A stretch of 64,000 bases of DNA from a virus (taxonomy: Duplodnaviria; Caudoviricetes). This document shows, one piece after another, positions 6,995-46,587 of the stretch. The notes beneath the pieces were generated by a model. It was not told where the DNA came from. It saw only the letters and a list, made by a program, of their open reading frames with translations, and ran no database searches. The position numbers and the translations under genes were made by a program. The stretch is taken from IMG/VR virus record IMGVR_UViG_3300010167_000013; one strand, written 5' to 3'. The number at the start of each line of letters is the position of its first letter. Positions within the stretch are counted from its first letter, which is position 1.

Positions 6995-7118
6995 CACAAG
7001 TTTTACTTGCACACAAGATGAGAATGGGAAACTAACAACATTGGATGAATGTCACTACTGTGAAAGACGTAATAAATGCGACGTGTTCGCCATGATGCTG
7101 AATGATTTACAGGAGTGA
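6981..7118 (+). CDS. Small Cys-containing (possible Zn-binding) protein, 45 aa, absent from the ORF track
   Basis: MRNRDTSFTCTQDENGKLTTLDECHYCERRNKCDVFAMMLNDLQE* fills the gap in the operon. Confidence 0.5.
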   Translation: MRNRDTSFTCTQDENGKLTTLDECHYCERRNKCDVFAMMLNDLQE

Positions 7119-7147
7119 TCTCATTGGAGTTTCCAGGAGGGTAATGT

Positions 7148-7546
7148 ATGAAACGAACTGCAATACAAGCTACACTGTACGACCCCAAGATTCAACACTT
7201 CTTTGAGAATTGGGTTATCGAATCAAACCTGAAGATAAAGTTCAACGTTGCCACATACTACATTGAATCAAAAAAGAGGAATAAATTTATCCTACTATTG
7301 AAGATGATTGGATTCAAAAAGATTGTGGACGAAAGAAGAATTCTTCGGGTTCTGACAAATCAGCCCGGGTATCTTCATGGAAAAGATGGAGCGTTGTTCA
7401 ACAGATATCGTACCATATTTACTGACAAGAAACACGTTCGAGATATTGACGATGTTGTTGTGATTGAAGTCAAAGATCAAGAACGTATACTCAAGGGAGT
7501 AAAGCGAAAGATAAACGATATGAACATGGAGTTCCAAATTAAATAA
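7148..7546 (+). CDS. KH-domain-like RNA-binding protein
   Basis: VLTNQPGYLHGKDGALF resembles the type II KH signature of ribosomal protein S3 (I.T.RPG..IGK.G). Confidence 0.5.
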   Translation: MKRTAIQATLYDPKIQHFFENWVIESNLKIKFNVATYYIESKKRNKFILLLKMIGFKKIVDERRILRVLTNQPGYLHGKDGALFNRYRTIFTDKKHVRDIDDVVVIEVKDQERILKGVKRKINDMNMEFQIK

Positions 7547-7583
7547 AAAAATAAACCGTGGTAATCCCACGGTTTATTTTTTT
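7545..7583. terminator. Bidirectional terminator between convergent genes
   Basis: AAAAAATAAACCGTGG-TAATC-CCACGGTTTATTTTTT. Confidence 0.75.
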
Positions 7584-7584
7584 C

Positions 7585-7980
7585 TCAATAGTCTTCTTCC
7601 TCGTCGTCGTACAACTCATCTTCGAATTCTTTGATGAATTTTTCTTCGAGTCTGGCTTTCTTCTTTTTCTTCATTGAAGAGTTTACCATCAATGCTGTAG
7701 CAACGGTACCCAGCCCAATAAGGAATCTATTACGATTTCTTATTCTGTTCCGATGTACCCTTGTCAGAATAACGTCGATAGTTGCACGTTCCTCTTCTGG
7801 TACAACATCATCCAAGATGATGGCTTCTTGTCCTCTCCTGGAATCATTTAGATCAGGATTCCTCAGCTTCCTAATCACTTGATGGAAGTACCTCTCAGGT
7901 GGTGGAAGAAATCCTTGAGTGACATAATCGACTATGTCATTCGTCTTCTCAAATACAACCTTCTTTGGATTGACTAACAT
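7585..7980 (-). CDS. Hypothetical membrane-anchored protein
   Basis: One TM segment FLIGLGTVATALMV, then a Lys run and an acidic tail. Confidence 0.6.
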   Translation of the reverse strand: MLVNPKKVVFEKTNDIVDYVTQGFLPPPERYFHQVIRKLRNPDLNDSRRGQEAIILDDVVPEEERATIDVILTRVHRNRIRNRNRFLIGLGTVATALMVNSSMKKKKKARLEEKFIKEFEDELYDDEEEDY

Positions 7981-8020
7981 CCCACATTCACATCCTTTTC
8001 ATGAAATTTTATAAACTATG

Positions 8021-8200
8021 TATCACACACAAATAGAATATGGCATCCCTCTCAGGTTCCTGTGGTTAGACAGGCTATATTTCCGATATGCCCTATCGTA
8101 CTATTGTGCTTCTAATTTATTACTCCTAGTTCATTATTAAATATATTTTTATCCTATTAATCGTAATCCTTCTTTGAGAATATTTTTAGCAGCATTGTAG
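8021..8200 (-). ncRNA. TnpB omegaRNA (reRNA) with 3' guide TATTCTATTTGTGTGTGATA
   Basis: Downstream of tnpB: GTACGATAGGGCATATCGGAAATATAGCCTGT...CAGGAACCTGAGAGGGATGCCA fits the usual IS605 right-end scaffold pattern. The 5' boundary is approximate. Confidence 0.6.
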
Positions 8201-9279
8201 TCTCTATGGTGTTGGATACCACAGCTATCACAGGTCCAATGTTTCAGCCTCAACCCAACATCACCACGATTACCACAATTATTACAGGTCGTACTGGATG
8301 GGTAATACCTATCAACTTTCTGTAGTGTTCTCCCATACCACTCGCACTTGTATTCCAGCTGTCTTACTAGTTCACCTAGGGCTGTGTCATATATCGACTT
8401 ATTGATATCCTTGTACTTGGTTTTCATGCTTTGGATATCTAAATCTTCAATACAGATAATGTCATTGGTGTTAACTAGTGAACTAGTAACTTTGTGTAAT
8501 GTGTCATATCTCTGGTTAGTGATCTTCTCATATATTTTAGCTACCTTGATCCTAGCCTTGTTCCAGTTCTTACTACCTTTTACTTTCCTAGACAGTACTC
8601 TCTGAGCATTAGCTAGCTTGAGTTCATACTGCTTCAGATGCCTGTGGTTTTTGTATGTCTTTCCATTTGATGTAGTAATCAGCTTATTGATACCCAAATC
8701 TAACCCAATGGAGTTACCTGTGATAGGTAGAACCTTTGGTTCTACATCAGTACAACAGATAGAACAGTAGTACTTTCCACTAGGTACCTGTGATATAGTA
8801 GCATTCAGAATCCTACCAGAGATGTCACACCTTCCTCTAAACTTTACACTACCAAGTTTTGGTAGCTTGACAAAGTTACTCACTATCTGAATGTTATTAC
8901 CAGCAACATATTTAGTAGTATAGGACATACTCCTGTTCTTCTTACTCTTGAACCTAGGATAGCCCAGAGTGTCACCTAACTTTACTTTCCTGAAGAAGTT
9001 CTGAAAGGCCATATCTAGATTCTGCAGCGATGCCTGCAGTGCATGGGCATCCGGTTCTTGTAACCATTCCAATTCCTTCTTCAGCTTAGTTAACTCCCTA
9101 CTACAGCTATTGTATGTCATATAGCTCTTCTTCTCTTCATAGGTCTTATTCTCTTCATAGGTCTTATTCCTAAGGCATAAGAAATGGTTCCAAATGTACC
9201 TGCAACAACCAAATGTTTTCTGTATCTGTATTTGCTGTGAGTCATTTGGGTATATCCTAAACTTGTACGATCTATTCAT
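8149..9279 (-). CDS. tnpB: RNA-guided endonuclease TnpB
   Basis: N-terminal SYKFRIYP...KTFGCCRYIWN, RuvC-I GLDLG, RuvC-II IEDL, zinc finger CNNC...CDSC, RuvC-III RDYNAAKNI. Start ATG 9279 behind GGAGGTG. Contains an in-frame 18-bp duplication (NKTYEE x2, 9131-9166). Confidence 0.95.
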   Translation of the reverse strand: MNRSYKFRIYPNDSQQIQIQKTFGCCRYIWNHFLCLRNKTYEENKTYEEKKSYMTYNSCSRELTKLKKELEWLQEPDAHALQASLQNLDMAFQNFFRKVKLGDTLGYPRFKSKKNRSMSYTTKYVAGNNIQIVSNFVKLPKLGSVKFRGRCDISGRILNATISQVPSGKYYCSICCTDVEPKVLPITGNSIGLDLGINKLITTSNGKTYKNHRHLKQYELKLANAQRVLSRKVKGSKNWNKARIKVAKIYEKITNQRYDTLHKVTSSLVNTNDIICIEDLDIQSMKTKYKDINKSIYDTALGELVRQLEYKCEWYGRTLQKVDRYYPSSTTCNNCGNRGDVGLRLKHWTCDSCGIQHHRDYNAAKNILKEGLRLIG

Positions 9280-9301
9280 TATATTCTCACCTCCTACGTA
9301 T

Positions 9302-9310
9302 ATAATATAT
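9302..9310 (-). promoter_or_regulatory. Putative early promoter ATATATTAT driving tnpB
   Basis: Motif about 20 nt upstream of the tnpB start. A second variant (ATATATTCT) lies at 9333-9341. Confidence 0.55.
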
Positions 9311-9422
9311 AATCGAGAAATATGCATATCTAAGAATATATAATTACGTTTTACACTTCATTAGAAGTCTCCAGAACGAAGACATAAGTAATGACATCCC
9401 AATACCCAAGGAGGTTTCTATC

Positions 9423-10895
9423 ATGCCAAACAATAGATTGAGTGATAATCTACTCAGAGACTTATTTGTCTTTGATGATGAAAATAATCCGAAGAGTAGT
9501 CAGATAAGTAGAATATATCCACCAACAATACTGGATCAGGTATTCGACCATCTACATCCAACTCAAAAAAATCTGAGAGAAATACTTGCTGATCTTCGGT
9601 ATGAGATAATAACAGGTGGACTAGGCAATATCGAATTTCCAGTAACTACAGTGAATGGCAAGAGTGGGGATGTTACAGTAACGTCAAACGATGTTGGTCT
9701 TGGTAGAGTAGACAACACCTCTGATATAGATAAACCATTGTCAGTTCCACAGAGAAGCGCTGTGATGGATATATTGTCAGTCTACAACTTCAATATCAAC
9801 TTGGATCCATTGTATGAACACTTGAAGGATACCACTAACCCGCACAGTGTTTCTGTAGACGATTTGAATCTAAATGACAAATTAGTCAAATTTGCAGATG
9901 CTAGGGTTGGACTTCACAATCTTTCTACCAGTAGTAACACACATCCGGATATCAGGAGATTGCTATCCACATTGTGGGATAGGGTAGATGAGATTGATTT
10001 TGGCAGTTCTTCTGGTGGAAGTAGTGGAGGTAGTGGATCTGTAGCGAGTGATTTAGATGGTCATATCAAGGACAAGATGGCCCATTTCGATTTATTTGAG
10101 GGAAGAGAAAATACCAACAACAAGGCTATGATCTTTACTGCCACAATCGACAACAACCACACGATGTATCCAACTACTAGAGCAGTATCGGATTTTATTA
10201 CAGATAGACTTGTTGCGTTCAAGGATACATTACCAAAGATCAATGAATGGATATCAAATATTCAGGTTATCGATAATCAATCAGAACTTCCTGTTGCGAG
10301 CAGTGACAATTACAGACATGCATATATCATAACCAGAGGTCCAGACCCATTCGAGATCGAGAGTGCAATCGCAGTGTGTAGAAGAGATCCATCCGACATT
10401 TACTTCTGGGATATCAAAGGTACAGAAAATGTATCAATATTTGATCCGAAGTATTTCAAGAAAACGGTGAATGGATTATCGTTGGACATTCCAGCCATCC
10501 TAGATACTGACCCTGATGACGGAGAAGAAACAGTTTCCTTCTACGATGTGTTTCTGCGGTCAGTTCAAATACTTCCAGGAACAATGGACGGTCATATCAG
10601 ATATTCGGTCAACAATGATCCTAGTACAATGTCGGATGATGTAAAGATCCCAGGTCTCAATAGTCTTGCATACAGAGAGTGGATTACAGAGAATGAAATA
10701 AAAGAACTTGCTGTGCATGAAAAACATATTCTGAATAAAGCAGTTACTACTCGTACGATTGACGATAGAGCTGTTATAGCTCCAAAGATTTCATGTGCTA
10801 AGGGGAAGATAATAGGAAACCTTGTGAATAGTACAAGTACAGCTCATGAGATAACACTTGAAGAACTAGCGGACGCACTACGTTCACTAATATAA
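9423..10895 (+). CDS. Virion fibre/baseplate-attached structural protein (paralog of 24256-27261 and 35041-39078)
   Basis: Motifs VTTVNGKSGDV, VGLGRVDNTSDIDKPLS, HLKDTTNPHSV and N-terminal YPPT..D.V are shared with the two larger fibre proteins. Confidence 0.65.
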   Translation: MPNNRLSDNLLRDLFVFDDENNPKSSQISRIYPPTILDQVFDHLHPTQKNLREILADLRYEIITGGLGNIEFPVTTVNGKSGDVTVTSNDVGLGRVDNTSDIDKPLSVPQRSAVMDILSVYNFNINLDPLYEHLKDTTNPHSVSVDDLNLNDKLVKFADARVGLHNLSTSSNTHPDIRRLLSTLWDRVDEIDFGSSSGGSSGGSGSVASDLDGHIKDKMAHFDLFEGRENTNNKAMIFTATIDNNHTMYPTTRAVSDFITDRLVAFKDTLPKINEWISNIQVIDNQSELPVASSDNYRHAYIITRGPDPFEIESAIAVCRRDPSDIYFWDIKGTENVSIFDPKYFKKTVNGLSLDIPAILDTDPDDGEETVSFYDVFLRSVQILPGTMDGHIRYSVNNDPSTMSDDVKIPGLNSLAYREWITENEIKELAVHEKHILNKAVTTRTIDDRAVIAPKISCAKGKIIGNLVNSTSTAHEITLEELADALRSLI

Positions 10896-10919: not shown

Positions 10920-13900
10920 ATGATGATGTACAAGTTGGAGAAAGACATATCCCTCTACAAAAATCAATTCGAAGATCTCGTTCTAAATATCTTCCAACGA
11001 CATCTCATGGAAAGACTGTCTATGGATCTTGATGGGTTGTTATTCAGAATAAAATACATGGTGAAGAACGATAAAGATCTAACGAAGCTTCCAGAAATGA
11101 AAAATCAATTCATTTCAAAGGCGCTAGAACTGAGAAGCATCTTCGGAGAAATCATGTACAATTTTCTGGTTGAACTAGTGGGATTCGGAGATAACTTCTC
11201 GAAAGACGATATCGAAGATCTCATGGCTCAAGATGTGAAAATGGATAATGTTCATGTGAGATTCAAAATGCTACTGTTGTCAGAGAATAAGAATTACCTG
11301 GATTATGTTGATGCCAGTATCGAAGATGGAAAAGTGTTCAATATGTTTCCAGATAAGTTCTTCAGGTACTATGTTGACTCATACAATGATGGGATAGCAA
11401 AAGCATATCCAGAATTATTTGAATCTAGACAACAAGACAGCATTGGTACAGGACATGATTCTGAAGTGTTCGTTCATTCTATGACCCTACAAACAACTGA
11501 GGATTGTAATCTCAACTGCTTTCCAGCTGGGACTAAGATCCTTATGGAAGATTTTTCTCACAAGAATATAGAAGATATAGAATTGGGAGACACAGTATTG
11601 GGGTTTGAAGAATTTAATGAATTCCAGCACCAAAGAAGTTTAATATCTACCATAGTTACCCAGTTATTTCACCATGATGAAAGCTGCTACAAGATTAGTC
11701 ATCCATCTTTTAAAGAGGATTTATATGTTACCCCGGAACATCCAATGCTTACAGCCCGCGGAGATTGGATACATGTCCGAGATCTTCGACCATCTGATGG
11801 GTTGCTAATGACAACATTTGACCCTGATGATTATTATCATACTAATGTTGATCATATCAACTATGTGAAAGGATACTTTATAGCTGGATGGCTCGGAGAT
11901 GGTTGTGTTATGAAACGTACCCAAAAAGATGGATATCGGCGATATTTCATGCGTTTTGTGGTCAAAGATATAGACATGACTGAACGAATGAAACGCTTCT
12001 CTGAAACTCTTGGGTTTAATTTCACAACGAATACTTTCAAGATGTCGCACAAAGATGGCTGTTATCGAGATACTTTATATTCAGGCAAGAGAGATGAGTA
12101 CGAAAGATGGGTCAAGCTATGTGAAGAGACATTTTCGGACAAACAAGCACTGAAGGATCCTGATTTTCTAATGGGATTCATGGCTGGATTTTATGATGCT
12201 GAAGGTGGTATCTGGGGTGCATGTATTAGGATTCACAACTCAGATAATAAACTCCTCCGCATTGTGGAGGCTGGTCTTAATTTTCTGAAAATAAAATGGG
12301 ACTATGATAAACCTCACCAGCCAGCTAATAAAATTGTATACACTCTTCGAATATTAGGCGGGTCACCAGATGTCCTAAAGTTTCTGAAATCCACCAGACC
12401 TGCGATTAAGAGGAAAGGTTCAGTCAATTTAGTTGGTAAGAGTTTATTCCAACGTATTGATGGATACACCATCGAGTATGCAAAATATGCAAAAACAGTG
12501 TATAATTTTGAGACGACGGAGCATACTTATATTGCTAACAGACTCCTGGTACACAACTGTAGCTACTGTTATATGTTCAACAAGAGTGATATGAGAATGA
12601 CCTTCGATATAGCCAAGAAATTCATTGATGAGTTATTGGCAGATAGATATGGTTACATCAATCGGTACAACTCTCCAGCGCTGATATTGGAGTTCATAGG
12701 TGGAGAGCCTCTGCTAGAAATTACATTGACAAGAAAAATCTACGAATACTTTCTGGACAGAACGTATGAATTGGAGCATCCATGGTTTAATCTTCACAGA
12801 CTCTCAATATGCTCCAATGGGCTACAATACTTTGATGAAGAAGTTCAATCGTTCTTCAGGGATTATGCCGGTAGTATATCATTCAATATATCCATAGACG
12901 GAAACAAGGAGTTGCATGACTCCTGTAGAATCCAGCCAAGTGGAGAAGGGAGTTATGATATCGACATGATTGCACTTAATCACTTCAACAGACACCATAC
13001 TCCAGAAAGAAATTCTAAAATGACTTTGGCTCCAGACAACATGAGATACTTATTTGATTCAGTAAAAAGCTTCATCGAAAATGGAATGATGACCATCAAC
13101 CTGAATTGTATTTTCGAGGAGGGATGGAACCAAGAAACAGCTCTTCTGGAATACAATGAATTGAAAAAGGTTGCCGATTACATTCTGGAAAATGATCTGG
13201 AGAATTTGTACATTGCTATCTTCAACGAGAGACAAGAAGATACATCAGAAAAGTCATATGACGGGAATTTCTGTTTCAAGGATGGTACTCAGGTGTTAGC
13301 TATCGATGGCCATCGTAACATAGAAGACCTGAATATCAATACTCTCTTGTACACTGCATCTGGTAGCATTCATAAAATTGTCAACATCAGTCAAAGGAAG
13401 TCTAGGAGTAATATGAAGATACATACTTCTGGAACATTTCCTATTGAATGCACTCGTGATCACAAGATATTTGCAAGAAAGATGATCCAAGAAAAAGGAG
13501 AAACATACTACGAAAAACCAGAATTTTATGAAGCTTCAGAACTTGTCGAAGGAGACTCAATCGCTCTTCCAATTCTAGATCTGTCACAGAATAAAAAGAA
13601 TTGGATAAACAACAACATCGCATATGCTCTTGGGGTATACTTACTATGTGGAACGATTAGTATGAATCGCATTGTGGTACCAGTCGATCCAGATAACAAG
13701 GTAGATGTTCGTGAGCATTTTCAGAGAGCCGGACTAAACATAACGACCGACAGACCTGACAGAGTAGAAATATATCGCCAAAAGTCAGAGCTGAACGATA
13801 ACTTCTTCAAACTATGTCTGAGGGCTGGAATTAGACCGAATGTCAAATCAGTTCCACAGATATTATTTGAATCCAAGAAGGATATAATTCAGGCCATGAT

Positions 13901-15866
13901 CAATGGATACTTCCAGGCAGGCGGATTTCAAGTAGCAGAAGGGAAAAACCATGAAGGGTTATTGAAAATAAGCATCATATCGAGACATCTGGCAAATGAT
14001 TTACTAATCCTCCTGAGATCTGTCAATCAATATCCAATATGCACCATGAGTCAAAAACCAATCACAATTGATGTAGATGGATCTAAGATGTCGTTCGATG
14101 AATCATATGGGATATCATATAACCCAATCAACTCATACCTGAAAGATCATTATGAGATAGATCAAGATCACTATGTCGCATGGGTTGGTATCAGATCAAT
14201 TGCATTTGTAAATGACGAATGGGAAGTTTTCTGTCCTACCGTAATGCCGATAAATGAAGGTGAAAAAGAAGAGCACACTATCATTGCAAACAATGCTGCA
14301 GTGAACCAATGTTTTCGTGGTGACATGCAAGTGTTGACGATCAATGGGAGCAAGAATATCAGAGACCTTCATGTTGGAGAACTATTGTATACTGCATCAG
14401 GTAGTATTCACAAAGTAACAAGAATGACAAAACGGTTCAATGAAAGTAATAGGAAGGTAACAGCAGCTGGAATTTTTCCAATTCATTGCACTGATGATCA
14501 CAAGGTATTTGCTAAAAAATTTCTATATATGGGATGGAAAGGTGTTCTTCACTATTCAGACCCAGGGTTCTACCCTATTTCGGAATTGAAGAAAGGTGAT
14601 AGAATGGCACTACCTATACTTCAATTACCAGAAAAACAAGTAGAAAAATGGTTGACTGAAGAACTAGCATATGCATTTGGAGTATATCTTGCAGATGGTC
14701 ATGGTTACACAGATAGTATAGTTATTACTCCAGGATATGATGACGACAAGAGTTACATGAATATGCTCAGAGGGTCTGGACTAACAATAAGTGTGAGTGA
14801 AATGCGTACCAGCATGAGGTATGATATTCACAAAAATTCATCTGAAGCAAATAGAAAGTTTATCGAACTATGTCTGATGTCTGGTGTTACATCCTGGACC
14901 AAACATATCCCAGAAACTATTTTCAACTCACCAAAGAATATTGTCCAGAAAGTTCTTGATGGATACCTGGAAACTGATGGATGGCAAGTTCCAGAAGATA
15001 AACATATTGCAGGAATGATCAAAGTCAATACGGTCTCTCAACATCTTGCTAGTGATATTCTAGTTCTTCTACGAGCTGTCGGAGAGTACCCTACTTGTTA
15101 CCTAAATAACAGGGCTGGTACTATGATCATTGAGGGTAGAACTGTAAATGTGCGAGATCGATATGAAATATATTATAACCCGACTAGGCCCAATGGGAAT
15201 AATATGTTTAAGAATGATGATCAATATAGTCTGATGTGGACAGGGATCAGAGATATTCAAAATGATGAAAACTATGATGTATATTGTCCTACAGTATCCC
15301 CTCTCACAAACGACCTAAAAGAAGAGCATTCCATAATTGTTAATGGTCTCGGTGCCCAGAACTGCGGCGGGACTGGAGCAATGTTATCATTAAGACCAAA
15401 TGGACAGTTCTATCCATGTATCAGATACATGCCATCTTCTGTTGGAGATAATGTAGATGATCTTTGCATTGGGACTGTGCAAGATGGAATGGTAGGAAGG
15501 GAAGAAAACTCTGAGGTTCTAAAATTATTAGACAGTGTAACACGTAGATCTCAATCTAATGATATATGTTATAAGTGTCCTATTGGAAATGACTGTGCTC
15601 ATTGCTCAGCGATGTCGCAGACAGTTTATGGAACTCCTAACAAAAAAGGATCTTTCATTTGTATTCAGATGATAGCAGAAGCACTAGCAAATGTTTATTA
15701 TTGGAATAGATTGTTGATTCATAAACCTCATTACGATCTTCCAGTTCGCAAGAATAATGTTCCTGACGAATGGTCGTTACTAGTGGTAGATGAAGTAGAA
15801 TTAGAAAACTTAAAGCTTCTTGAATGTATGGCGATGATCAAAAAAATAGAATACAGTGGGACTTAA
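10920..15866 (+). CDS. Radical SAM/SPASM peptide maturase, CXXX-repeat-target type (TIGR04115-like), with three inteins; about 604 aa after splicing
   Basis: Spliced sequence gives TLQTTEDCNLN|CSYCY, EFIGGEPLLE, HPWFNLHRLSICSNG, ISIDGNKELHDSCR, NF|CGGTGAML...FYPCIRY and CYKCPIGNDCAHCSA...FICIQ. Confidence 0.85.
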   Translation: MMMYKLEKDISLYKNQFEDLVLNIFQRHLMERLSMDLDGLLFRIKYMVKNDKDLTKLPEMKNQFISKALELRSIFGEIMYNFLVELVGFGDNFSKDDIEDLMAQDVKMDNVHVRFKMLLLSENKNYLDYVDASIEDGKVFNMFPDKFFRYYVDSYNDGIAKAYPELFESRQQDSIGTGHDSEVFVHSMTLQTTEDCNLNCFPAGTKILMEDFSHKNIEDIELGDTVLGFEEFNEFQHQRSLISTIVTQLFHHDESCYKISHPSFKEDLYVTPEHPMLTARGDWIHVRDLRPSDGLLMTTFDPDDYYHTNVDHINYVKGYFIAGWLGDGCVMKRTQKDGYRRYFMRFVVKDIDMTERMKRFSETLGFNFTTNTFKMSHKDGCYRDTLYSGKRDEYERWVKLCEETFSDKQALKDPDFLMGFMAGFYDAEGGIWGACIRIHNSDNKLLRIVEAGLNFLKIKWDYDKPHQPANKIVYTLRILGGSPDVLKFLKSTRPAIKRKGSVNLVGKSLFQRIDGYTIEYAKYAKTVYNFETTEHTYIANRLLVHNCSYCYMFNKSDMRMTFDIAKKFIDELLADRYGYINRYNSPALILEFIGGEPLLEITLTRKIYEYFLDRTYELEHPWFNLHRLSICSNGLQYFDEEVQSFFRDYAGSISFNISIDGNKELHDSCRIQPSGEGSYDIDMIALNHFNRHHTPERNSKMTLAPDNMRYLFDSVKSFIENGMMTINLNCIFEEGWNQETALLEYNELKKVADYILENDLENLYIAIFNERQEDTSEKSYDGNFCFKDGTQVLAIDGHRNIEDLNINTLLYTASGSIHKIVNISQRKSRSNMKIHTSGTFPIECTRDHKIFARKMIQEKGETYYEKPEFYEASELVEGDSIALPILDLSQNKKNWINNNIAYALGVYLLCGTISMNRIVVPVDPDNKVDVREHFQRAGLNITTDRPDRVEIYRQKSELNDNFFKLCLRAGIRPNVKSVPQILFESKKDIIQAMINGYFQAGGFQVAEGKNHEGLLKISIISRHLANDLLILLRSVNQYPICTMSQKPITIDVDGSKMSFDESYGISYNPINSYLKDHYEIDQDHYVAWVGIRSIAFVNDEWEVFCPTVMPINEGEKEEHTIIANNAAVNQCFRGDMQVLTINGSKNIRDLHVGELLYTASGSIHKVTRMTKRFNESNRKVTAAGIFPIHCTDDHKVFAKKFLYMGWKGVLHYSDPGFYPISELKKGDRMALPILQLPEKQVEKWLTEELAYAFGVYLADGHGYTDSIVITPGYDDDKSYMNMLRGSGLTISVSEMRTSMRYDIHKNSSEANRKFIELCLMSGVTSWTKHIPETIFNSPKNIVQKVLDGYLETDGWQVPEDKHIAGMIKVNTVSQHLASDILVLLRAVGEYPTCYLNNRAGTMIIEGRTVNVRDRYEIYYNPTRPNGNNMFKNDDQYSLMWTGIRDIQNDENYDVYCPTVSPLTNDLKEEHSIIVNGLGAQNCGGTGAMLSLRPNGQFYPCIRYMPSSVGDNVDDLCIGTVQDGMVGREENSEVLKLLDSVTRRSQSNDICYKCPIGNDCAHCSAMSQTVYGTPNKKGSFICIQMIAEALANVYYWNRLLIHKPHYDLPVRKNNVPDEWSLLVVDEVELENLKLLECMAMIKKIEYSGT
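11517..12557 (+). mobile_element. Intein 1 (347 aa) with LAGLIDADG homing endonuclease, inside the CxxxCxxC motif
   Basis: Starts CFPAGT, block B TPEHP, endonuclease motifs IAGWLGDG and MAGFYDAEG, ends LLVHN before Cys. Confidence 0.92.
13272..14309 (+). mobile_element. Intein 2 (346 aa), ends in Gln, degenerate endonuclease
   Basis: Starts CFKDGT, block B TRDHK, ends AAVNQ. The LAGLIDADG positions read GVYLLCG and NGYFQAGG (acidic residues lost). Confidence 0.85.
14310..15362 (+). mobile_element. Intein 3 (351 aa), directly abutting intein 2
   Basis: Starts CFRGDM, block B TDDHK, endonuclease motifs GVYLADG and DGYLETDG, ends GAQN before CGGTG. Confidence 0.88.
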
Positions 15867-16892: not shown

Positions 16893-16956
16893 AATTGAAT
16901 GAAGGATGATACGAAACCGAGATTATAAAGGAACATGTCATAATGGAGGTGATTGC

Positions 16957-19900
16957 GTGAATAGGGATTTATACTCGAATACAGAGTTTACCAAATTGAA
17001 GGAAGACTTGAATAAAGAAATAAAAAGACGGGCCACATTCAAGTGGTGGGACCCACTAGCTACTCCAAAGGTAGGACAGGATAGATCATCCCCATTATCG
17101 TTACCTGATATCGGAAAAAGAATGTTGGTAACAGATGAAACTTACACCATCAACAATTCTTCTGAGGGATCTATTGAATGTACTAGAAACATACACTATC
17201 CTGCTCATGGGGAGAATCCTTCTGGAGAGATACCAAATACCCCCTTGAATAACAAAGAAGGACAACTCAAGACTTCCGCTGCCAGATTAGATGCCGATGA
17301 GATAAAAAACTATCTGGTTGGATTGTCGAAGATAATGGACATAAATCTTTTCTATGGAAGAGATGAAGTTCCTGGCACTGCATTTCGTGATCCTATTGGA
17401 ATAGAGAATGCATTGAAAGCTGCTCAGAATAGCAAGCTGAATGCTCCACTTCATCAATCTGATATTGAACCAGCAAGAATAGATCCTAGCAAGGAAGATC
17501 TAACTGTTGTAACATATCATATTGATGGTGGGATATATGTAATGCCATCTGGAGAATACGATGGGGAGGAACTATTGAAGAAGATGGGTCCTGATGAAAC
17601 CAACTTCTTTGATGATCACGGAGCTAAGGTATATGATACCGGGAAGAAAACTCCTGATGGACAACCTATTTTGGTAAGTGATTCTAACTACAAGCCAATG
17701 AATCCGTTTGTATCTCCTCTTGTTAATAGAAACTGGAATGATCAACAGAATAGTCGTGAAGATCTTCCAACCAAAAGAGAAGAGGGTGGAGTTCCATCTA
17801 CTAGGTTTGGCCCTAATCCTAGAAATCCTCAGCAGGGAAATCAGTACAGACCTAGACCTGTATTCGGCGGAGTTCTTGGAGCATGTAATTCATCGTGCAC
17901 AGGATTATGTTTTAAGACATGTGATAATGAATGCAGTGAGAATTGCACTACAACGTGCTGGTCTAGATGTGGCAACGCTTGCACGTCAAGCTGCGGGAAT
18001 GTCTGTACCGGGTGCAACTCGATGTGCTATACCTCCTGTAAAACTAAATGCGAAAATAGCACGGGATATTCATGCCTGAATGTTGGAGCCAAGACAGTAA
18101 ACATAGTTCCTGTTGGTAGTGCTCACGGATCATCTGGTGCACCGGGATCAGCTACCTGGCCAAAAAACACAATATCATATACTACCTACAAATGTAATGG
18201 TTGCGCATATACATGTCAATTCTACCCGAATAAACGTACCACATGTTGGGATGCAGGTTGTCAGGAGTTATGTTTCACGTCATGCAGAACAGCATGTTCC
18301 ACAACATGCTTTGGAGGATGTATAGATAACGCTGCTCAGGATACTGGGAAGTACGGAACTGGAAAAGGCCGTGGATGTTCTAGTGGATGTACTGTCAACT
18401 GTGTAGGAGCTTGTCAAGGAGTATGCATAGGCGAATGCGTTCACACATGCTTCCATGCATGCAAGGCGTTATGCTACGATAACTGTTCGTGGAAATGTCA
18501 TACCAGCTGTGGATCCGGTTGTGCCAATGGATGTAAAAACGGATGTACTGGATGTCACTCAACATGCGCTGGTAGTTGTATTGGAGAAAACAATGCATCC
18601 ATATGTATTGGATGTGGAAAATCTGGTGGATGTACATCTACATGCCAACATGATTGCAATAAGAATTGTATCGGCTGGGGATGTAGATCAATATGTGGAA
18701 CAGAATCGGCTGGATCTTGTGAATCTAATTGTCGTCTGAGTTGTATGTCATCTTCATGCACTTCAATGTGTGGAAATGCTTGTGCGTCTCAATGTACAAC
18801 ATGTGTGAATAACTGTGGAGCTCAATGCGGGTGTTGTTCATCGATGTGTAGCACTGGATGTGAAGCTGCATGTAATATTACATGCACTGAAGAATGTCAG
18901 AATGCATGTACTACATATTGTTACATGTCATGCACTGAATCCTGTGGAAGTTGTTTCAAAGCAGGTACATTAATAGAAACTGAACTTGGACTTGTCCCCA
19001 TCGAGGAGGTTAAAGTAGGGGATATGGTTTTAACACAAAGCGGAAAATATCATAGAGTTTATAAAAATTTTGTAAGAGAAGCTAATGATATTATCTCTAT
19101 TAGAGCAGTAGGAACTCCAATAATTCATACCACAGAAGAACATCCGTTCTGGGTTAAGAAATATATTGGCTTAGGAAAAAAAGAAGGGAAACTTCAACAG
19201 TTGTATTCAGATCCAGAATGGGTGGAAGCTAGAGATCTTAAATCTCGTGATAAATTATCATTGTATACACCTCCAATTGGAAATATTGAAGTTGATCCTG
19301 GTATAGCTTATATGGTCGGAAGGTGGCTTGGAGACGGATGGAGAAGCGATGAAAAAAGCCATAATGGACAATATTATCCAAGGTTTAGTATTTGCTGTGG
19401 AAAACATGAAATAGATGATTTCGAACTTAAATTATATCAATCTAATATTGAATATACTAAATCTACTAAAGAGACATCAGATAATTATAGGATACCATCT
19501 ATGATTACCAGGGATAGGTATTGGTGTAATAATGATGAACTTATTTCAATCCTAAAAGAATGCGGAAAATATTCTTATGGTAAAAAAATAAGTAAAGAAA
19601 TTTACAATTGGAATATAAATTCATTGATGCATTTACTTCAAGGGTATTCTGATGCAGATGGACATTTCGATGAAGATCATTCATCAATTGTAATCTCAAC
19701 TGTAAGTAAAGAGCTTGCTCTTGGAGTATCAACTATTATGAGAATGATTGGAAGAAATCCATCATGCCATGTGAAAGAATATCCTACCGGCAAAATGTAT
19801 ATTGAAGGCCGTGAAGTTAACGTAAGAACTGTATACACTTTAAAAATGTTTACGGGAGAATATACCAGAAATTATTCTGAATATGATTATGATAATAATA

Positions 19901-20784
19901 CGACATGGTCTAGTGTTAGATTAGTAAATATTCCGGATGATTCATATACTGTATATAATTTATCAGTAGAAGACAATCCAACATTCTATGCTGATGGAGT
20001 TTTGGTTCATAATTGCTCGGATATGTGCTATTCATGTGTTGGAATGTGCATCGGTATTTGTTCGGTGAAATGTGAGAACGGATGTTCATCGTGTGATACC
20101 AACTGTGGATGGTGGTGCGACTCTACATGCAACAGACAATGTTTCAATAATTGTAGCGACAGATGCATCAGCACATGCAGTGGATCATGTAGTACTTACC
20201 TTGAAGCTAATACAACCACACCACTCTCTGGTCCAGAGAAACCACCAACATCAGAAGGATATCAAACACCAAATCCATCAGATAGAGAAGAAGAAAGAGA
20301 ATCATTCAAATTAATCTCCTCTGATGTAAAACCAAAACCACCAGTAACACCACCTGGTGAAAAAGATTACTTGGTCCATGTATTCGCTGATAAAGATAAC
20401 AACTTCCAAGTTGTATCTCCGTATGATGTGATAAAATGGATGATTCACTCAACAGTTTGCATCGGTGGAGTGTGGAGCATATACGAGGATACTGGAGAAG
20501 TATTTGCTGTAAGTGCTGCACTATCTGCAACACTGGTCCAAATGTATCCGAACATCGATGGTGGTAGAGGAATTATATTGATAACTCTGTTTGATAATCC
20601 TGAGTTCCCAATTAACCCATTCAAGGATATCTATGTTGAACTTCCAAGAAATCTTGAATACAAGATAATTCCAAACGTAGAAGGAGACATCATAATTCTA
20701 ATCCAGAGAGAATCCTTTGGACCATTCGAAACTGTCATTGACGAATACGGAAAGATGAGATTTATTCAAGGAATCAGGGAGTGA
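16957..20784 (+). CDS. Large Cys-rich CxxxC-repeat protein, putative radical SAM modification target, with one intein
   Basis: About 89 Cys (hand count), mostly in CxxxC/CxxC register. Probable GTG start at 16957 behind GGAGGT. Lies about 1 kb downstream of the maturase. Confidence 0.8.
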   Translation: MNRDLYSNTEFTKLKEDLNKEIKRRATFKWWDPLATPKVGQDRSSPLSLPDIGKRMLVTDETYTINNSSEGSIECTRNIHYPAHGENPSGEIPNTPLNNKEGQLKTSAARLDADEIKNYLVGLSKIMDINLFYGRDEVPGTAFRDPIGIENALKAAQNSKLNAPLHQSDIEPARIDPSKEDLTVVTYHIDGGIYVMPSGEYDGEELLKKMGPDETNFFDDHGAKVYDTGKKTPDGQPILVSDSNYKPMNPFVSPLVNRNWNDQQNSREDLPTKREEGGVPSTRFGPNPRNPQQGNQYRPRPVFGGVLGACNSSCTGLCFKTCDNECSENCTTTCWSRCGNACTSSCGNVCTGCNSMCYTSCKTKCENSTGYSCLNVGAKTVNIVPVGSAHGSSGAPGSATWPKNTISYTTYKCNGCAYTCQFYPNKRTTCWDAGCQELCFTSCRTACSTTCFGGCIDNAAQDTGKYGTGKGRGCSSGCTVNCVGACQGVCIGECVHTCFHACKALCYDNCSWKCHTSCGSGCANGCKNGCTGCHSTCAGSCIGENNASICIGCGKSGGCTSTCQHDCNKNCIGWGCRSICGTESAGSCESNCRLSCMSSSCTSMCGNACASQCTTCVNNCGAQCGCCSSMCSTGCEAACNITCTEECQNACTTYCYMSCTESCGSCFKAGTLIETELGLVPIEEVKVGDMVLTQSGKYHRVYKNFVREANDIISIRAVGTPIIHTTEEHPFWVKKYIGLGKKEGKLQQLYSDPEWVEARDLKSRDKLSLYTPPIGNIEVDPGIAYMVGRWLGDGWRSDEKSHNGQYYPRFSICCGKHEIDDFELKLYQSNIEYTKSTKETSDNYRIPSMITRDRYWCNNDELISILKECGKYSYGKKISKEIYNWNINSLMHLLQGYSDADGHFDEDHSSIVISTVSKELALGVSTIMRMIGRNPSCHVKEYPTGKMYIEGREVNVRTVYTLKMFTGEYTRNYSEYDYDNNTTWSSVRLVNIPDDSYTVYNLSVEDNPTFYADGVLVHNCSDMCYSCVGMCIGICSVKCENGCSSCDTNCGWWCDSTCNRQCFNNCSDRCISTCSGSCSTYLEANTTTPLSGPEKPPTSEGYQTPNPSDREEERESFKLISSDVKPKPPVTPPGEKDYLVHVFADKDNNFQVVSPYDVIKWMIHSTVCIGGVWSIYEDTGEVFAVSAALSATLVQMYPNIDGGRGIILITLFDNPEFPINPFKDIYVELPRNLEYKIIPNVEGDIIILIQRESFGPFETVIDEYGKMRFIQGIRE
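17884..20190 (+). repeat. CxxxC amino-acid repeat array, interrupted by an intein
   Basis: For example CNSSCTGLCFKTCDNECSENCTTTCWSRCGNAC and CSDMCYSCVGMCIGICSVKC. Confidence 0.9.
18952..20013 (+). mobile_element. Intein 4 (354 aa) with LAGLIDADG endonuclease
   Basis: Starts CFKAGT, block B TEEHPF, motifs VGRWLGDG and LQGYSDADG, ends VLVHN before Cys. Confidence 0.92.
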
Positions 20785-28457: not shown

Positions 28458-29773
28458 CCAACCTCCCCTAGATCCAAATATGCATTTATCAAATAATCAC
28501 GGTAGGTATCTCCCTTATTTTTGATTAGTGCATCAAGTATTCCTAGTTCATCATAGTACTCATACAAGAATTTGAACTTGGATTGATATAATTTGCATAC
28601 TGATTCCACTGGCATGAATACTTCCTTGTTGGTCTCATAGTTGGAACCTAGGCAACCTTTTGTACAGAACGATTTGATTGGACATGAATAGCACTTCAGC
28701 TGAAATGCTGCTGGAAGAGATTTGATCGATAGATACTGTGTCACAAATTCCCCTTCGATATCAATAATCTTTTCTTGGTTTTCATCCAAGATAAACCTAC
28801 CAGCTATGAATTCTGGATACATCAATCGGTGACATGGAACTACAGTTAGGTCTGCCATTCTGACAGCTATTGATTTCTGAATGCTGCATGATATTGCATC
28901 GTCGTATCTTTTATTGGCATTTCTAAGAATCAATGCAGTAATGTCTTCTGGTCCATTCACTAAGTTATCAACATATCTCTTAGCATCGTAGTCAAAATAT
29001 TCCATCTTTTTGTCTATCATATGTTTCAGAAAGTTGATATAGTGAGCGATGGATTCCTCTGTCCATCCATCGTTCCTTACTTCCAACATATTTAGTTTGA
29101 ATTTCTCCCCATGATCACCGAGCATTTCGATGAACCAATCCCAGTTGTCAGGCCATTCCTCAATATTGTTATGATGCACCATCGCATGAAAGCTATAATT
29201 ATACTTCCTTGCAAATGCCATGAGTTTCTCGTAGTACTCATCGCCTCTGGACTGATTCTTACTCTTGTATGGTCTATTACATTCCATGAACTTCCCGTCA
29301 TCAGAGATAGATAGATATACTCGTTTACTGGTATCAATGAACTTCTCAACGATATCTTCGACTCTTCTTGTCTTCTCATCATCCAGGATAAAAGAATAGT
29401 TTGTTGGAATATCAACATACTGGAACAGAGTTGGGCACTCTATCATTTTCTGGTGAACTAGATCTAGTACCTGGAATCCTATTTCTTGAGAAAATATTTC
29501 TCCAGAGAAAAGGGACAACCTACCTTGGTACTCATTCTCTATCAAGAAGTCTAAAAATATTTCAGTATTCCTCAGAATGCTTTCACCGTTCTCAAATACA
29601 GATGATGGATACAGTTGATGCCCATATCTATGCATGTAACAGTAGGTGCATGCCTGATCACATTCTGGTGATAGTATGAGTTCAATGGATGGGATTGAAT
29701 TATTAGCCCCACTGAGACCTCTCATCAGATAACTCTTCAAGAGCAAATCATTTTCCTTCTGATATGATATCAT
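28442..29773 (-). CDS. Radical SAM protein with SPASM domain
   Basis: CDQACTYC, LFSGE, ISDDG. SPASM cysteines SCSIQ...VPCHR...CYSCPIKSFCTKGCLG...VCK. Confidence 0.88.
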   Translation of the reverse strand: MISYQKENDLLLKSYLMRGLSGANNSIPSIELILSPECDQACTYCYMHRYGHQLYPSSVFENGESILRNTEIFLDFLIENEYQGRLSLFSGEIFSQEIGFQVLDLVHQKMIECPTLFQYVDIPTNYSFILDDEKTRRVEDIVEKFIDTSKRVYLSISDDGKFMECNRPYKSKNQSRGDEYYEKLMAFARKYNYSFHAMVHHNNIEEWPDNWDWFIEMLGDHGEKFKLNMLEVRNDGWTEESIAHYINFLKHMIDKKMEYFDYDAKRYVDNLVNGPEDITALILRNANKRYDDAISCSIQKSIAVRMADLTVVPCHRLMYPEFIAGRFILDENQEKIIDIEGEFVTQYLSIKSLPAAFQLKCYSCPIKSFCTKGCLGSNYETNKEVFMPVESVCKLYQSKFKFLYEYYDELGILDALIKNKGDTYRDYLINAYLDLGEVGCECQ

Positions 29774-31236
29774 GCGAACATCTCCTTCTTACTATCTCTG
29801 AGGTGTCTTTCGTACAGTAATTCAAATGTTCCATTCAACAATAACTTAGCCATTGACGTATCGGGAACAAGGAAATGATTTGTTATCTGCAAATTATGAA
29901 TTATGCATTCATTGATCCTCTTGAGGAATATAACAGCTCTATTCCTCATCTTCTTGCTATTCTTGAACATTGGACTTATTTGACCAGCCTGTGCTAATTC
30001 ATAGACTAGTGCCGAGATAGCTGAGAATGTTATTAATGCTCCTGCTCTGGTGGCATATGCCTCCATATTTTTTACCTTGGCAACATTCTCTGGAGAGGTA
30101 TCATTGATATTTAGCGATAGTAGATTTGAATTTCTTTCAAACATATATTTTGAATTGCGTTGCTTCGGAACTACCTTTCGATCAAAGATTGTACCTTCTA
30201 TCTTGCTATTCACAAGTGAATCTTCGTAGAACTTTGTGCTCAACATCCCAGTAGTCTTTGAACATACCCCATATGTTTTCCCATCGGGATGGAGTCCAAT
30301 GGTACTATACCCTCCGGAGCAACAACTATATCCAACATTATCAATGGTGGTATTCGGGTTTTCCATTTGATCGTATATTGTAGGGAATTCTTGGTCTAAC
30401 CATAGCATGGTATCATACAATGGTAAGAACAGCTGATCCCTATTTCTATCACTAATATCAAGTACCATCTTGACGAACTCAGCTAACTTCTTACCATCTT
30501 CTTGAGTGTATTCCCCAGGAGCAACAAAGTTTGGGATAGACATCATTTGAATATCTAAATTATTGGATGTTGGTATGTTATTCAATCCAACATGTAGATC
30601 CTCAAAGAACTTGTAGTATTTTATCACGGATTCTTCATCTACTAAAACATTTGTTATTGTGTCCATACATAGTGTAGATTTCGCGATTATTGATACACCA
30701 ACATTTCCTGGAACACTTGAGTCCAATAGATATACAAGAGGTTTGAGATTATTGACCACGGTCTCAGTTACCCCTGATTTCTGATTTGATATGAACAGTC
30801 TATGACGATCTGTTACCTCGGATGGTCCGTCAAGTGACACCTGAATATGGACATGAAACTCTCTGTTCATATCCTTGTATCTGTAGTTCTTCATTATGTC
30901 AACAAATCTACCTAATTCAGTAATATTGGTGGTGAGGTTAGTGAGAAGGGTAAAGTGATACAGATTCGGAAACTCATCCAAGTAGGTATCTAATTTGTCA
31001 TTGAGTAGGGACAGATTAAGGAGTAATTCTCCTCCAGTAATATATAGCTGGGTGAGGTGATGTCTGTTCTCTCCATAAATCTTCTTCAATGATTCAAGGA
31101 GGATATTCTCCTTCAGAGCTTTCCTGACTACTTTGTCGTAGTCAAAGATTGCTTTGTTTTTGTGAATGTAGCAATAATCGCACTTCAAGTTACATTTAGT
31201 GCTCAACGCAATGTGAACTACATTTGGTTCAATCAT
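29770..31236 (-). CDS. Radical SAM protein with reduced (twitch-like) auxiliary Cys domain
   Basis: CNLKCDYCY, ITGGE, LLTN, QVSLDGP...DRHR and CCSGG...GVC...EC. Likely start 31236 (ORF open to 31293). Confidence 0.85.
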   Translation of the reverse strand: MIEPNVVHIALSTKCNLKCDYCYIHKNKAIFDYDKVVRKALKENILLESLKKIYGENRHHLTQLYITGGELLLNLSLLNDKLDTYLDEFPNLYHFTLLTNLTTNITELGRFVDIMKNYRYKDMNREFHVHIQVSLDGPSEVTDRHRLFISNQKSGVTETVVNNLKPLVYLLDSSVPGNVGVSIIAKSTLCMDTITNVLVDEESVIKYYKFFEDLHVGLNNIPTSNNLDIQMMSIPNFVAPGEYTQEDGKKLAEFVKMVLDISDRNRDQLFLPLYDTMLWLDQEFPTIYDQMENPNTTIDNVGYSCCSGGYSTIGLHPDGKTYGVCSKTTGMLSTKFYEDSLVNSKIEGTIFDRKVVPKQRNSKYMFERNSNLLSLNINDTSPENVAKVKNMEAYATRAGALITFSAISALVYELAQAGQISPMFKNSKKMRNRAVIFLKRINECIIHNLQITNHFLVPDTSMAKLLLNGTFELLYERHLRDSKKEMFA

Positions 31237-31391
31237 TAGAATGCCTCTTTTCTTTTCTACCATCCGATTACTAGTAATTAATGACATACTCACAGTATTT
31301 TCCTGATGGTTGAAATTTTATATCATTGGTCTACCATCACGAGGAATTTATACTGATACATAATATTCAACCTAATGAGGGAGTGATAATA

Positions 31392-46111: not shown

Positions 46112-46154
46112 ATTATATTCTCTCCTTTGATATATCATATAATATATAATTATC

Positions 46155-46190
46155 TGATGTAGTAACCTCCAGAGGGAGGTTACTACATCA
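46155..46190. terminator. 16-bp perfect inverted repeat / terminator
   Basis: TGATGTAGTAACCTCC-AGAG-GGAGGTTACTACATCA. Confidence 0.7.
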
Positions 46191-46214
46191 TTCATGAATA
46201 TAAAAATATTTATT

Positions 46215-46535
46215 CTGTACCATCGGAGTGGACTGGCCTATCCGGAATAAGCCAGCCCATGCTCAATAGTTTTTCAACCGATGGGTGTTACTATTTGTTA
46301 CTGGCCCGGGGATTGGTGGGCCTGCTCTTCCTTTATCAGATATCAGATATCTTAAGGAACCCCACTATGACTACCAGGGTTCGTACCGGCTTACGCTTCC
46401 TACGGTTACGAACCCTGGTTCGTTGACACTTACTATGCGTCCATATTCGTGCCAACTTATGCGAAGGAGAATAGACCTGGTACCGTAACAGTCGGAACTC
46501 TGCCGCTGCCATATGGTTTAACTATCCTCTCTCGT
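46215..46535 (-). ncRNA. Candidate structured non-coding RNA (~320 nt), family not recognised
   Basis: GC-richer intergenic block with at least five stems whose G-U pairs favour the minus strand. Bounded by an ATATATTCT motif (46545-46553) and a terminator (46155-46190). Confidence 0.55.
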
Positions 46536-46587
46536 CACAAAAATAGAATATATAATTTTGTGAAAGGGATATACGATTTATTTATAT

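What the first reader, a model, noticed from the sequence alone, without database searches (positions are those of the whole stretch)
8021..9345. Solo TnpB sits inside a phage promoter and its guide matches another promoter of the same phage
Seen: excising 8041-9338 recreates (minus strand) AATTATA|TATTCTATTTGTGTG. The predicted guide TATTCTATTTGTGTG matches 14/15 nt of TATTCTATTTTTGTG at 46536-46550, which is preceded by the same AATTATA. The match goes beyond the shared promoter core and is absent from the other early promoters in the window. RuvC D/E/D residues are intact, there is no tnpA, and tnpB has its own phage-type promoter. Known: TnpB guides derive from the right flank and the TAM from the left flank, and partial pairing often gives binding without cleavage. 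Inference: either a homing/competition nuclease that cuts element-free promoters of co-infecting relatives, or a domesticated RNA-guided repressor of the candidate ncRNA promoter.
Basis: partly seen in the sequence, partly recalled or inferred. Interest (0 to 1): 0.75.

Follow-up and report, generated by a model that had tools for sequence, protein, structure and literature searches.

The report
Phage TnpB nuclease splitting a promoter
A large phage carries an intact RNA-guided nuclease gene (tnpB) with a very short guide RNA, inserted into one copy of a repeated phage promoter; it is probably a selfish homing element, and its near-match to a second promoter is most simply a by-product of the two promoters being copies of one motif.

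Summary
An intact ISDra2-like tnpB (9279-8149, minus strand; D194/E278/D360 and the zinc finger are kept) lies between the two halves of a 22-nt motif. The whole motif occurs at 46536-46557 with 21/22 identity (0 expected by chance). The motif contains ATTATATATT, which occurs 8 times, always intergenic and on the minus strand. tnpB also has its own 16/16 copy of the common promoter form. No tnpA is in the window.

New here: the guide RNA scaffold is only 64 nt (8103-8040). Its pseudoknot is kept by three compensatory changes compared with relatives. The guide is then ATTCTATTTGTGTGTG and the inferred TAM is TATAT.

Site B has that TAM and matches 13/16 guide positions (mismatches at 10, 15, 16). 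Similarity between the two sites stops at the 22 nt, so promoter paralogy explains the match.

The transposase hairpins are gone or reduced. tnpB, guide RNA and orf131 form one transcription unit. The likeliest role is RNA-guided homing against element-free co-infecting phages, which is inferred. I found no empty allele. The repressor reading has no support of its own. The scan has noted similar promoter-splitting phage TnpB elements in other genomes. Ordinary kind, with a neat small guide RNA.

The parts
9335..9344 (-). Upstream copy of the promoter core ATTATATATT (left half of the split 22-nt motif). It contains the inferred TAM TATAT at 9342-9338.
   Evidence: TAM inferred from the pseudoknot-defined right end plus the intact copy at site B
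9280..9337 (-). Left end / 5' leader of tnpB. It starts ATTCTT (its first 5 nt equal the first 5 nt of the guide) and has a perfect palindrome ATATGCATAT (9329-9320). It carries an internal phage-type promoter ATTATATATTATATAC (9313-9298) and the RBS AGGAGG. No IS605-type left-end hairpin is present.
   Evidence: relatives' left-end hairpins have no counterpart here
8149..9279 (-). tnpB, 376 aa, with RuvC D194/E278/D360 and the CxxC...CxxC zinc finger intact. K263, which reads the pseudoknot G:C pair in ISDra2, is conserved.
8040..8103 (-). Guide RNA (omegaRNA) scaffold, 64 nt. It has hairpin CGAUA-GGGCA-UAUCG, stem CCUG/CAGG with an 8-nt loop in place of stem 3, the mini-hairpin CCU-GAG-AGG, and the tail GA-UGCC-A-U. 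Loop GGCA pairs with tail UGCC to form the pseudoknot.
   Evidence: (covariance model, 18.9 bits, E 0.007)
8024..8039 (-). Predicted 16-nt guide ATTCTATTTGTGTGTG. This is the right half of the split promoter motif and the start of the old orf131 leader.
   Evidence: pseudoknot register with the ISDra2 structure (PMC10097598)
7585..7980 (-). orf131 (131 aa, no family). This is the gene cut off from its promoter; it is now read through from the tnpB promoters.
   Evidence: no terminator lies between the guide and the ORF
7545..7583 (-). 17-bp terminator hairpin that closes the tnpB-guide RNA-orf131 unit.
46534..46554 (-). Site B: TATAT plus a 16-nt near-cognate target ATTCTATTTTTGTGAC. It matches 13/16 guide positions, with mismatches at 10, 15 and 16.
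46536..46557 (-). Intact copy of the 22-nt promoter-type motif, with CGTAT 19 nt upstream as at three other copies.
46150..46535 (-). Transcript that site B would drive: a G+C-rich, highly structured non-coding RNA of about 330-380 nt ending in a 16-bp terminator hairpin.
   Evidence: z = -8.4; no Rfam family

Best explanation
This is an IS200/IS605-derived, ISDra2-like TnpB and guide RNA module. It entered one copy of a phage promoter-type motif, AATTATAT|ATTCTATTTGTGTG, directly 3' of TATAT and between that promoter and orf131. It has since lost what a TnpA transposase needs: there is no tnpA, no left-end hairpin, and the right-end hairpin is shrunk to 3 bp. It has kept what the nuclease needs: an open 376-aa frame, the catalytic triad, the zinc finger, the pseudoknot-reading lysine, and a pseudoknot repaired by compensatory changes. 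It is transcribed from phage promoters together with orf131. Its guide spells the uninterrupted orf131 promoter. So the enzyme most likely cuts element-free genomes of co-infecting relatives, or genomes that lost the element by slippage between the 7-nt ATATTCT repeats. Recombinational repair would then copy the element in, which is transposon 'non-restorative homing' or marker exclusion. The 13/16 match with the correct TAM at 46534-46554 arises because both sites are copies of one motif. Shown here: anatomy, homology, pseudoknot covariation, motif statistics. Inferred: TAM, cleavage, homing.
For: Protein.

Guide RNA: the 5' 34 nt align column by column with relatives, and a covariance model built from relatives alone finds 8103-8011.

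Pseudoknot: four loop/tail variants were compared (GGAAC, or GGAAU in L005, with GUUC followed by AC or AG; GGACA with UGUC followed by AA; window GGGCA with UGCC followed by AU). In all, loop positions 2-5 pair with tail -3..-6, -2 is A and -1 is free. The relatives' right ends were fixed by comparing the same element at different sites. ISDra2 has the same register (PMC10097598).

Right end: the boundary from the pseudoknot (8040|8039) falls inside the 7-nt zone independently required by the promoter rebuild.

TAM contacts: Y52/S56/Q80, which read -1T and -2A, are conserved. K76/F77/T123/N124, which read -3..-5, are replaced. This fits TATAT rather than TTGAT. The closest clade (P0011) shares these replacements and its elements follow ...TCAT.

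Transcription unit: the only terminator lies after orf131.

Population: the same filled allele is in two other assemblies.

Context: the window holds intein-borne LAGLIDADG homing endonucleases. TnpB homing is established for bacteria and plasmids (PMC13565253).

Site A/B similarity is confined to 22 nt.
Against: No element-free allele was found, so the insertion site rests on one paralogous copy. The scaffold lacks stem 3a, which contacts RuvC in ISDra2, and its MFE is not better than shuffles (z -0.48), so activity is unproven. The covariance model puts the 3' tail on TAGTTTAT (8018-8011), not on GATGCCAT. An independent 100%-identical contig, L045, starts exactly at 8011. The left end begins with the same 5 nt as the guide and carries a perfect phage promoter. 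IS605 insertion does not predict either, so the left boundary could be 9337 or 9306. The filled right junction (GCCAT plus a perfect 16-nt match) differs from the target only at TAM positions -5..-3, so how the enzyme spares its own genome is unexplained.
Confidence: 0.6

Rival explanations
1. Domesticated regulator or nuclease acting on site B. The TnpB-guide RNA complex binds the near-cognate site at 46534-46554, which overlaps the promoter core. It would repress the structured non-coding RNA, or nick or cut there for a phage purpose.
For: Site B has the identical inferred TAM, a perfect 9-nt TAM-proximal match and 13/16 overall. It is the only such site in the window. It sits on the promoter core of a strongly structured RNA. 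tnpB has a phage promoter and has lost its transposition features. A TnpB on its cognate TAM can still act on singly mismatched targets (PMC11043419). TnpB relatives have been domesticated as promoter-binding repressors in phages (PMC10705468).
Against: The guide is simply the flank of the insertion, and the A/B match ends with the shared 22-nt motif, so no selection for targeting needs to be invoked. The RuvC triad is intact, unlike TldRs. In ISDra2, double mismatches in positions 1-12 abolish cleavage and distal ones reduce it, so the outcome at B is unknown. Cutting its own genome would be harmful.
Confidence: 0.12
2. Inert relic. The element is a decaying insertion whose guide RNA is too reduced to work, and the ORF is still open only because the insertion is recent or by chance.
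For: The scaffold is 64 nt against about 100 in relatives. Stem 3 is replaced by an 8-nt loop and stem 4 has 3 bp. The left-end hairpin and tnpA are absent. The closest protein among 5.8 billion is only 56% identical. Residues that contact stems 2 and 3a in ISDra2 are changed (Q227R, R238N).
Against: An 1131-nt frame remains open in 38% G+C DNA with all catalytic, zinc and pseudoknot-reading residues. Three compensatory pseudoknot changes imply selection on RNA function after divergence. A dedicated promoter and RBS are present. The allele is identical in three assemblies. Removing stem 3b improves ISDra2 activity, so shortening is not in itself loss.
Confidence: 0.15
3. The right end is at 8011|8010 (tail TAGTTTAT). 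The guide would then be AAAATTTCATGAAAAG over the orf131 ribosome-binding region, and the TATTCTATTTGTGTG stretch would be internal to the element.
For: The covariance model built from relatives aligns its conserved tail UAGUUCAC to UAGUUUAU at 8018-8011. Contig L045 from another sample, 100% identical, begins exactly at 8011, as an assembly-graph branch at an insertion boundary would.
Against: AGUUUAU cannot pair with the window's loop GGGCA (two wobbles, two mismatches), whereas UGCC pairs perfectly in the conserved register. No stem 4 hairpin precedes it. A 6/8 match to an 8-mer within 60 AT-rich bases has roughly 25% odds by chance (my estimate). The in-register 21/22 rebuild of the site B motif would then be a coincidence (0 of 100 shuffles).
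Confidence: 0.1

Closest known systems
ISDra2 TnpB with its omegaRNA/reRNA (IS200/IS605; PDB 8EXA, 8H1J, 8BF8)
   Same: Full-length alignment at E 2.5e-86 with the same domain order, the D-E-D triad and the zinc finger. The guide RNA is encoded just 3' of tnpB and ends at the right end. The pseudoknot is in the same register (last pair at -3, A at -2, one free base, then the guide). K263 is conserved.
   Different: No tnpA and no end hairpins. The scaffold is 64 nt against 116 nt: stem 3 is replaced by a loop and stem 4 has 3 bp. The TAM contacts for -3..-5 are replaced, so the inferred TAM is TATAT, not TTGAT. Transcription is from phage promoters, and the C-terminal domain is absent.
tnpB-only (IS1341-type) elements in phage genomes, such as Bacillus phages SPG24/phiNIT1 and the IMG/VR loci L001-L044
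   Same: A single tnpB with a 3' guide RNA inside large phage genomes, 47-50% protein identity, and a homologous 5' half of the scaffold.
   Different: Those keep about 100-nt scaffolds, strong right-end and often left-end hairpins, and a TTGAA-type flank. The window's copy has diverged in loop, tail and TAM contacts.
TldR, TnpB-like nuclease-dead repressors of temperate phages (PMC10705468)
   Same: A TnpB-derived protein in a phage with a guide complementary to a promoter region.
   Different: TldRs are defined by RuvC-inactivating mutations or truncation, and their guide matches the regulated promoter. Here the triad is intact and site B is only a 13/16 near-match explained by paralogy.
Free-standing and intein/intron homing endonucleases of phages (T4 SegF/SegB, I-TevI; review PMC13565253)
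   Same: The proposed mode of action is the same: cut the allele that lacks the gene in a co-infecting genome, then spread by repair. The same window holds LAGLIDADG inteins.
   Different: Recognition here would be by RNA guide plus TAM rather than by protein. Self and non-self are told apart by the insertion itself.

Membership tests
TnpB (OMEGA) RNA-guided nuclease, IS200/IS605 | HTH/WED-REC, OrfB_IS605 (RuvC) and zinc-ribbon TNB domains in order | tested here: met
   Pfam PF12323, PF01385 and PF07282 are all above cut-off. Residues 2-373 align to ISDra2 residues 4-374.
TnpB (OMEGA) RNA-guided nuclease, IS200/IS605 | RuvC catalytic D-E-D triad and CxxC...CxxC zinc finger | tested here: met
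   D194, E278 and D360 align with ISDra2 D191/E278/D361. C332/C335/C350/C353 are present.
TnpB (OMEGA) RNA-guided nuclease, IS200/IS605 | Guide RNA scaffold at the 3' end of the gene, ending in a pseudoknot directly before a flank-derived guide | tested here: met
   Covariance model hit at 8103-8011 (E 0.007). 34-nt column-wise alignment. Loop/tail pairing is kept by three compensatory changes in the conserved register.
TnpB (OMEGA) RNA-guided nuclease, IS200/IS605 | RNA-guided, TAM-dependent DNA cleavage | not testable with these tools
   Needs biochemistry. The TAM TATAT is only inferred from the junction and from conserved Y56/S60/Q82.
Mobile IS200/IS605 element | Y1 transposase TnpA in cis or elsewhere in the genome | tested here: not met
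   tblastn with three TnpA proteins finds no hit better than E 0.3 in the 64-kb window. The rest of the 179-kb genome could not be read.
Mobile IS200/IS605 element | Subterminal imperfect hairpins at the left and right ends recognised by TnpA | tested here: not met
   Relatives have 9-10-bp hairpins at both ends. The window has none at the left end and only CCU-GAG-AGG at the right end.
TldR (nuclease-dead TnpB repressor) | One or more RuvC triad residues mutated, or the C-terminal RuvC/zinc finger lost | tested here: not met
   The triad and zinc finger are intact. Definition taken from PMC10705468.
TldR (nuclease-dead TnpB repressor) | Guide complementary to a TAM-flanked site in the promoter of the regulated gene | tested here: inconclusive
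   Site B has TATAT plus 13/16, overlapping the promoter core, but paralogy predicts this.
Homing element (transposon non-restorative homing) | Element-free alleles exist that carry the exact TAM plus guide target | tested here: inconclusive
   No relatives or empty sites in INPHARED phages, IMG/VR, JGI metagenomes (one chance hit) or GTDB genomes. Two other assemblies carry the filled allele.

The most novel reading that the evidence does not exclude
The phage has kept a nuclease-competent TnpB with a minimised guide RNA because the complex engages the near-cognate site on the promoter of the 330-nt structured RNA (correct TAM, 9-nt perfect seed, 13/16 overall). It would bind without efficient cutting and so time or limit that RNA. 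That would make it an RNA-guided transcription factor that is not nuclease-dead, evolved from a homing element.
Probability: 0.1. Interest if true: 0.8.

Novelty: new member of a known kind. Interest (0 to 1): 0.45.

Why it matters
TnpB genes are common in phages (611 of 50,697 records matched), but what they do there is largely untested. This copy gives a clean, testable case. The target is unambiguous (an intact promoter). A built-in near-cognate control site sits in the same genome. The 64-nt scaffold shows which guide RNA parts evolution keeps (hairpin, pseudoknot, a short stem 2, a 3-bp stem 4) and which it discards (all of stem 3). That may interest people shrinking TnpB editors. It also adds to a pattern this scan has noted in other phages: TnpB elements that use promoter motifs as landing sites. 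That would link promoter repeats to the spread of RNA-guided selfish elements.

Tried and rejected
1. Empty alleles and close relatives. Megablast of 7000-10500 against phages found nothing. The orf131 and 490-aa neighbours have no useful relatives; the only orf131 homologue (37%, L046) is too distant. Exact-pattern scans of IMG/VR, JGI metagenomes (L061 is an unrelated chance 21-mer) and GTDB genomes gave no allele and no host target.

2. DNA of the two long sister contigs could not be fetched.

3. Rfam has no family for the guide RNA or for the site B RNA.

4. I looked for a second scaffold copy or stand-alone guide RNA in the window and found none. The model hit at 30203-30307 lies inside a radical SAM gene and is taken as chance.

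5. I looked for extended homology between sites A and B beyond the motif and found none.

6. I considered a sigma-70 reading of the promoters. The consensus scan is no better than shuffles. Four of the eight copies share CGTAT 18-19 nt upstream instead, so the polymerase is unknown and 'early' is unverified.

7. I considered the 6-7-nt repeat at both junctions as a target-site duplication. IS605 elements make none, so it stays unexplained.

Full report
**What is there**

On the minus strand the region reads as follows: promoter core copy (9344-9335), a 58-nt leader, tnpB (9279-8149), 45 AT-rich bases, a conserved RNA block (8103-8040), then orf131 (7980-7585) and a 17-bp terminator (7583-7545). 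There is no terminator between tnpB and orf131, so the three are one transcription unit.

The window is part of a 178.8-kb phage contig. It holds tail-fibre genes, GroEL, radical SAM genes and three LAGLIDADG-type inteins. It has no near relative in INPHARED or IMG/VR.

**The protein**

The 376-aa product has the three TnpB Pfam domains. It aligns end to end with ISDra2 TnpB at E 2.5e-86. D194, E278 and D360 and the four zinc cysteines are in place.

Its nearest relatives among 5.8 billion proteins are only 50-56% identical. The identical protein is on two other assemblies at the same position. No Y1 transposase is in the window.

**The observation**

AATTATATATTCTATTTGTGTG has one other match in the window, at 46536-46557(-), with one mismatch; none was expected in shuffles.

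ATTATATATT occurs eight times against 0.77 expected. All copies are on the minus strand, each upstream of a minus-strand gene or RNA. Six copies continue ATATAC or similar. Only 9335 and 46547 continue CT. tnpB has its own 16/16 copy of the common form at 9313-9298.

So this is a real regulatory motif, and the rebuilt site A and site B form its rarer sub-type. Which polymerase reads it is unknown. Four copies share CGTAT 18-19 nt upstream, and a sigma-70 scan is uninformative.

**Where the element ends**

I defined right ends in relatives by comparing the same element at different sites. One group ends ...GTTCAC|, another ...GTTCAG|, and the clade closest to the window (P0011/P0089) ends ...TGTCAA|.

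In all of them a 5-bp hairpin near the 5' end of the scaffold carries a 5-nt loop (GGAAC, or GGAAU in L005, and GGACA). Loop positions 2-5 pair with tail positions -3 to -6. Position -2 is A and -1 is free. This is the pseudoknot register seen in the ISDra2 structure (PMC10097598).

The window's first 34 scaffold bases align column by column with relatives, but its loop is GGGCA. The only complementary tail is UGCC at 8045-8042, followed by A and U. That makes three compensatory changes in the conserved register.

This puts the right end at 8040|8039, inside the 7-nt zone that the promoter rebuild independently allows. The guide is then ATTCTATTTGTGTGTG (8039-8024). The base-for-base rebuild gives the flank TATAT (9342-9338) as the TAM.

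The ISDra2 residues that read -1T and -2A (Y52, S56, Q80) are conserved. Those that read -3 to -5 (K76, F77, T123, N124) are replaced. The P0011 clade shares these replacements and its elements follow ...TCAT. This agrees with an NNNAT-type TAM, but it is inference.

**The scaffold is very short**

It has 64 nt against about 100 in relatives and 116 in ISDra2.

- Stem 3 is replaced by an 8-nt loop between CCUG and CAGG.
- Stem 4, which doubles as the transposase's right-end hairpin, is reduced to CCU-GAG-AGG.
- No left-end hairpin exists.

So the parts needed by TnpA are gone, while the parts needed by TnpB are kept. These include K263, which reads the invariant G:C pair of the pseudoknot. Whether so short an RNA still works is untested. 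Deleting stem 3b improves ISDra2 activity, but stem 3a contacts RuvC there.

**Site B**

With the revised register, site B is TATAT plus 13 of 16 guide positions, with mismatches at 10, 15 and 16. It lies on the promoter core of a G+C-rich, strongly structured RNA (z = -8.4) with no Rfam family.

Similarity between rebuilt site A and site B stops at the 22 nt. Since a TnpB guide is just the right flank, landing in one copy of a repeated motif is enough to explain the match.

Published data cut both ways on what the enzyme would do at B. ISDra2 loses cleavage with double mismatches in positions 1-12 and tolerates distal ones. A Sulfolobus TnpB on its cognate TAM still acts on singly mismatched targets. 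Engagement of B is therefore possible but not indicated.

The other six promoters mismatch from guide position 4 onward. The filled right junction has a perfect 16-nt match behind GCCAT, so sparing its own genome must depend on TAM positions -5 to -3.

**Most likely function**

By analogy with established TnpB biology, the complex would cut genomes that carry the uninterrupted orf131 promoter. These could be co-infecting relatives, or genomes that lose the element by slippage between the ATATTCT repeats at both junctions. Repair from an element-bearing genome would then spread it.

The inteins in the same window show that this phage lineage does host homing elements. I could not find an empty allele, so this stays an inference at about 0.6.

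**Open points**

- The covariance model aligns the relatives' tail to TAGTTTAT at 8018-8011 rather than to GATGCCAT. A 100%-identical contig from another sample starts exactly at 8011. The pseudoknot and the promoter rebuild argue strongly for 8040, but the contig end is unexplained.
- The left end starts with the same five bases as the guide and contains a perfect phage promoter. The left boundary could therefore be 9337 or 9306; both rebuild the same empty site.
- Reads and RNA data were not obtainable.

**Comparison and verdict**

This is a member of the TnpB/omegaRNA family on every sequence criterion. It is not a mobile IS605 (no TnpA, no end hairpins) and not a TldR (triad intact).

Earlier notes of this scan describe other phage TnpB elements that split promoters or have empty alleles in sister phages. 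I did not check those claims. If they hold, the kind is recurrent. The distinctive points here are the minimal, compensated guide RNA and the built-in near-cognate site.

Noticed in passing
L045:1-1668 = window 8011-6344: A 1,668-bp MEGAHIT contig from another sample (ERZ27257295) is 100% identical to the window and begins exactly at 8011. That is the position where the covariance model places an alternative right-end tail. It could be a graph branch (strain or insertion polymorphism) or a coverage gap.
   Followed up: partly
window 46150-46535 (-): A G+C-rich non-coding stretch (0.47 against 0.38 for the genome) downstream of site B folds far better than shuffles (MFE -151 kcal/mol, z -8.4). 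It ends in a 16-bp terminator hairpin and has no Rfam family or phage blastn match.
   Followed up: partly
window 48910-48960 (-): Tandem promoter repeats: the 19-nt unit ATTATATATTATACTTAGA occurs twice, followed by a third core copy. CGTAT lies 18-19 nt upstream of the core at 48931, 46547, 21418 and 16886, which suggests a two-part phage-specific promoter.
   Followed up: partly
window 9320-9329: A perfect 10-bp palindrome ATATGCATAT lies between the two promoter copies upstream of tnpB, with two other exact copies at 27899 and 38582. It may be a protein-binding site or chance (11 matches at one mismatch or fewer against 6 expected).
   Followed up: partly
window 9333-9339 and 8035-8041 (-): The 7-nt direct repeat ATATTCT brackets the element. 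Slippage between the copies would excise it precisely and recreate the TnpB target. IS605 insertion does not make duplications, so its origin is unexplained.
   Followed up: no
window 30203-30307 (-): The guide RNA covariance model scores 19.1 bits (E 0.006) inside a radical SAM gene (29770-31293). Its loop is enlarged and its tail is poor. I take it as a chance hit.
   Followed up: partly
window 10920-15866 and 16906-20784 (+): Two giant ORFs carry Hint/intein-splicing and LAGLIDADG domains: two inteins in the first and one in the second. Several protein-based homing elements therefore lie within 12 kb of tnpB.
   Followed up: partly
P0004 (ENA ERZ27257320, 26.7-kb contig): The closest TnpB relative (56% identity) comes from the same sample series as the sister assemblies of this phage. 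It sits between a GntR-like gene and a topoisomerase gene. Its DNA could not be fetched.
   Followed up: no
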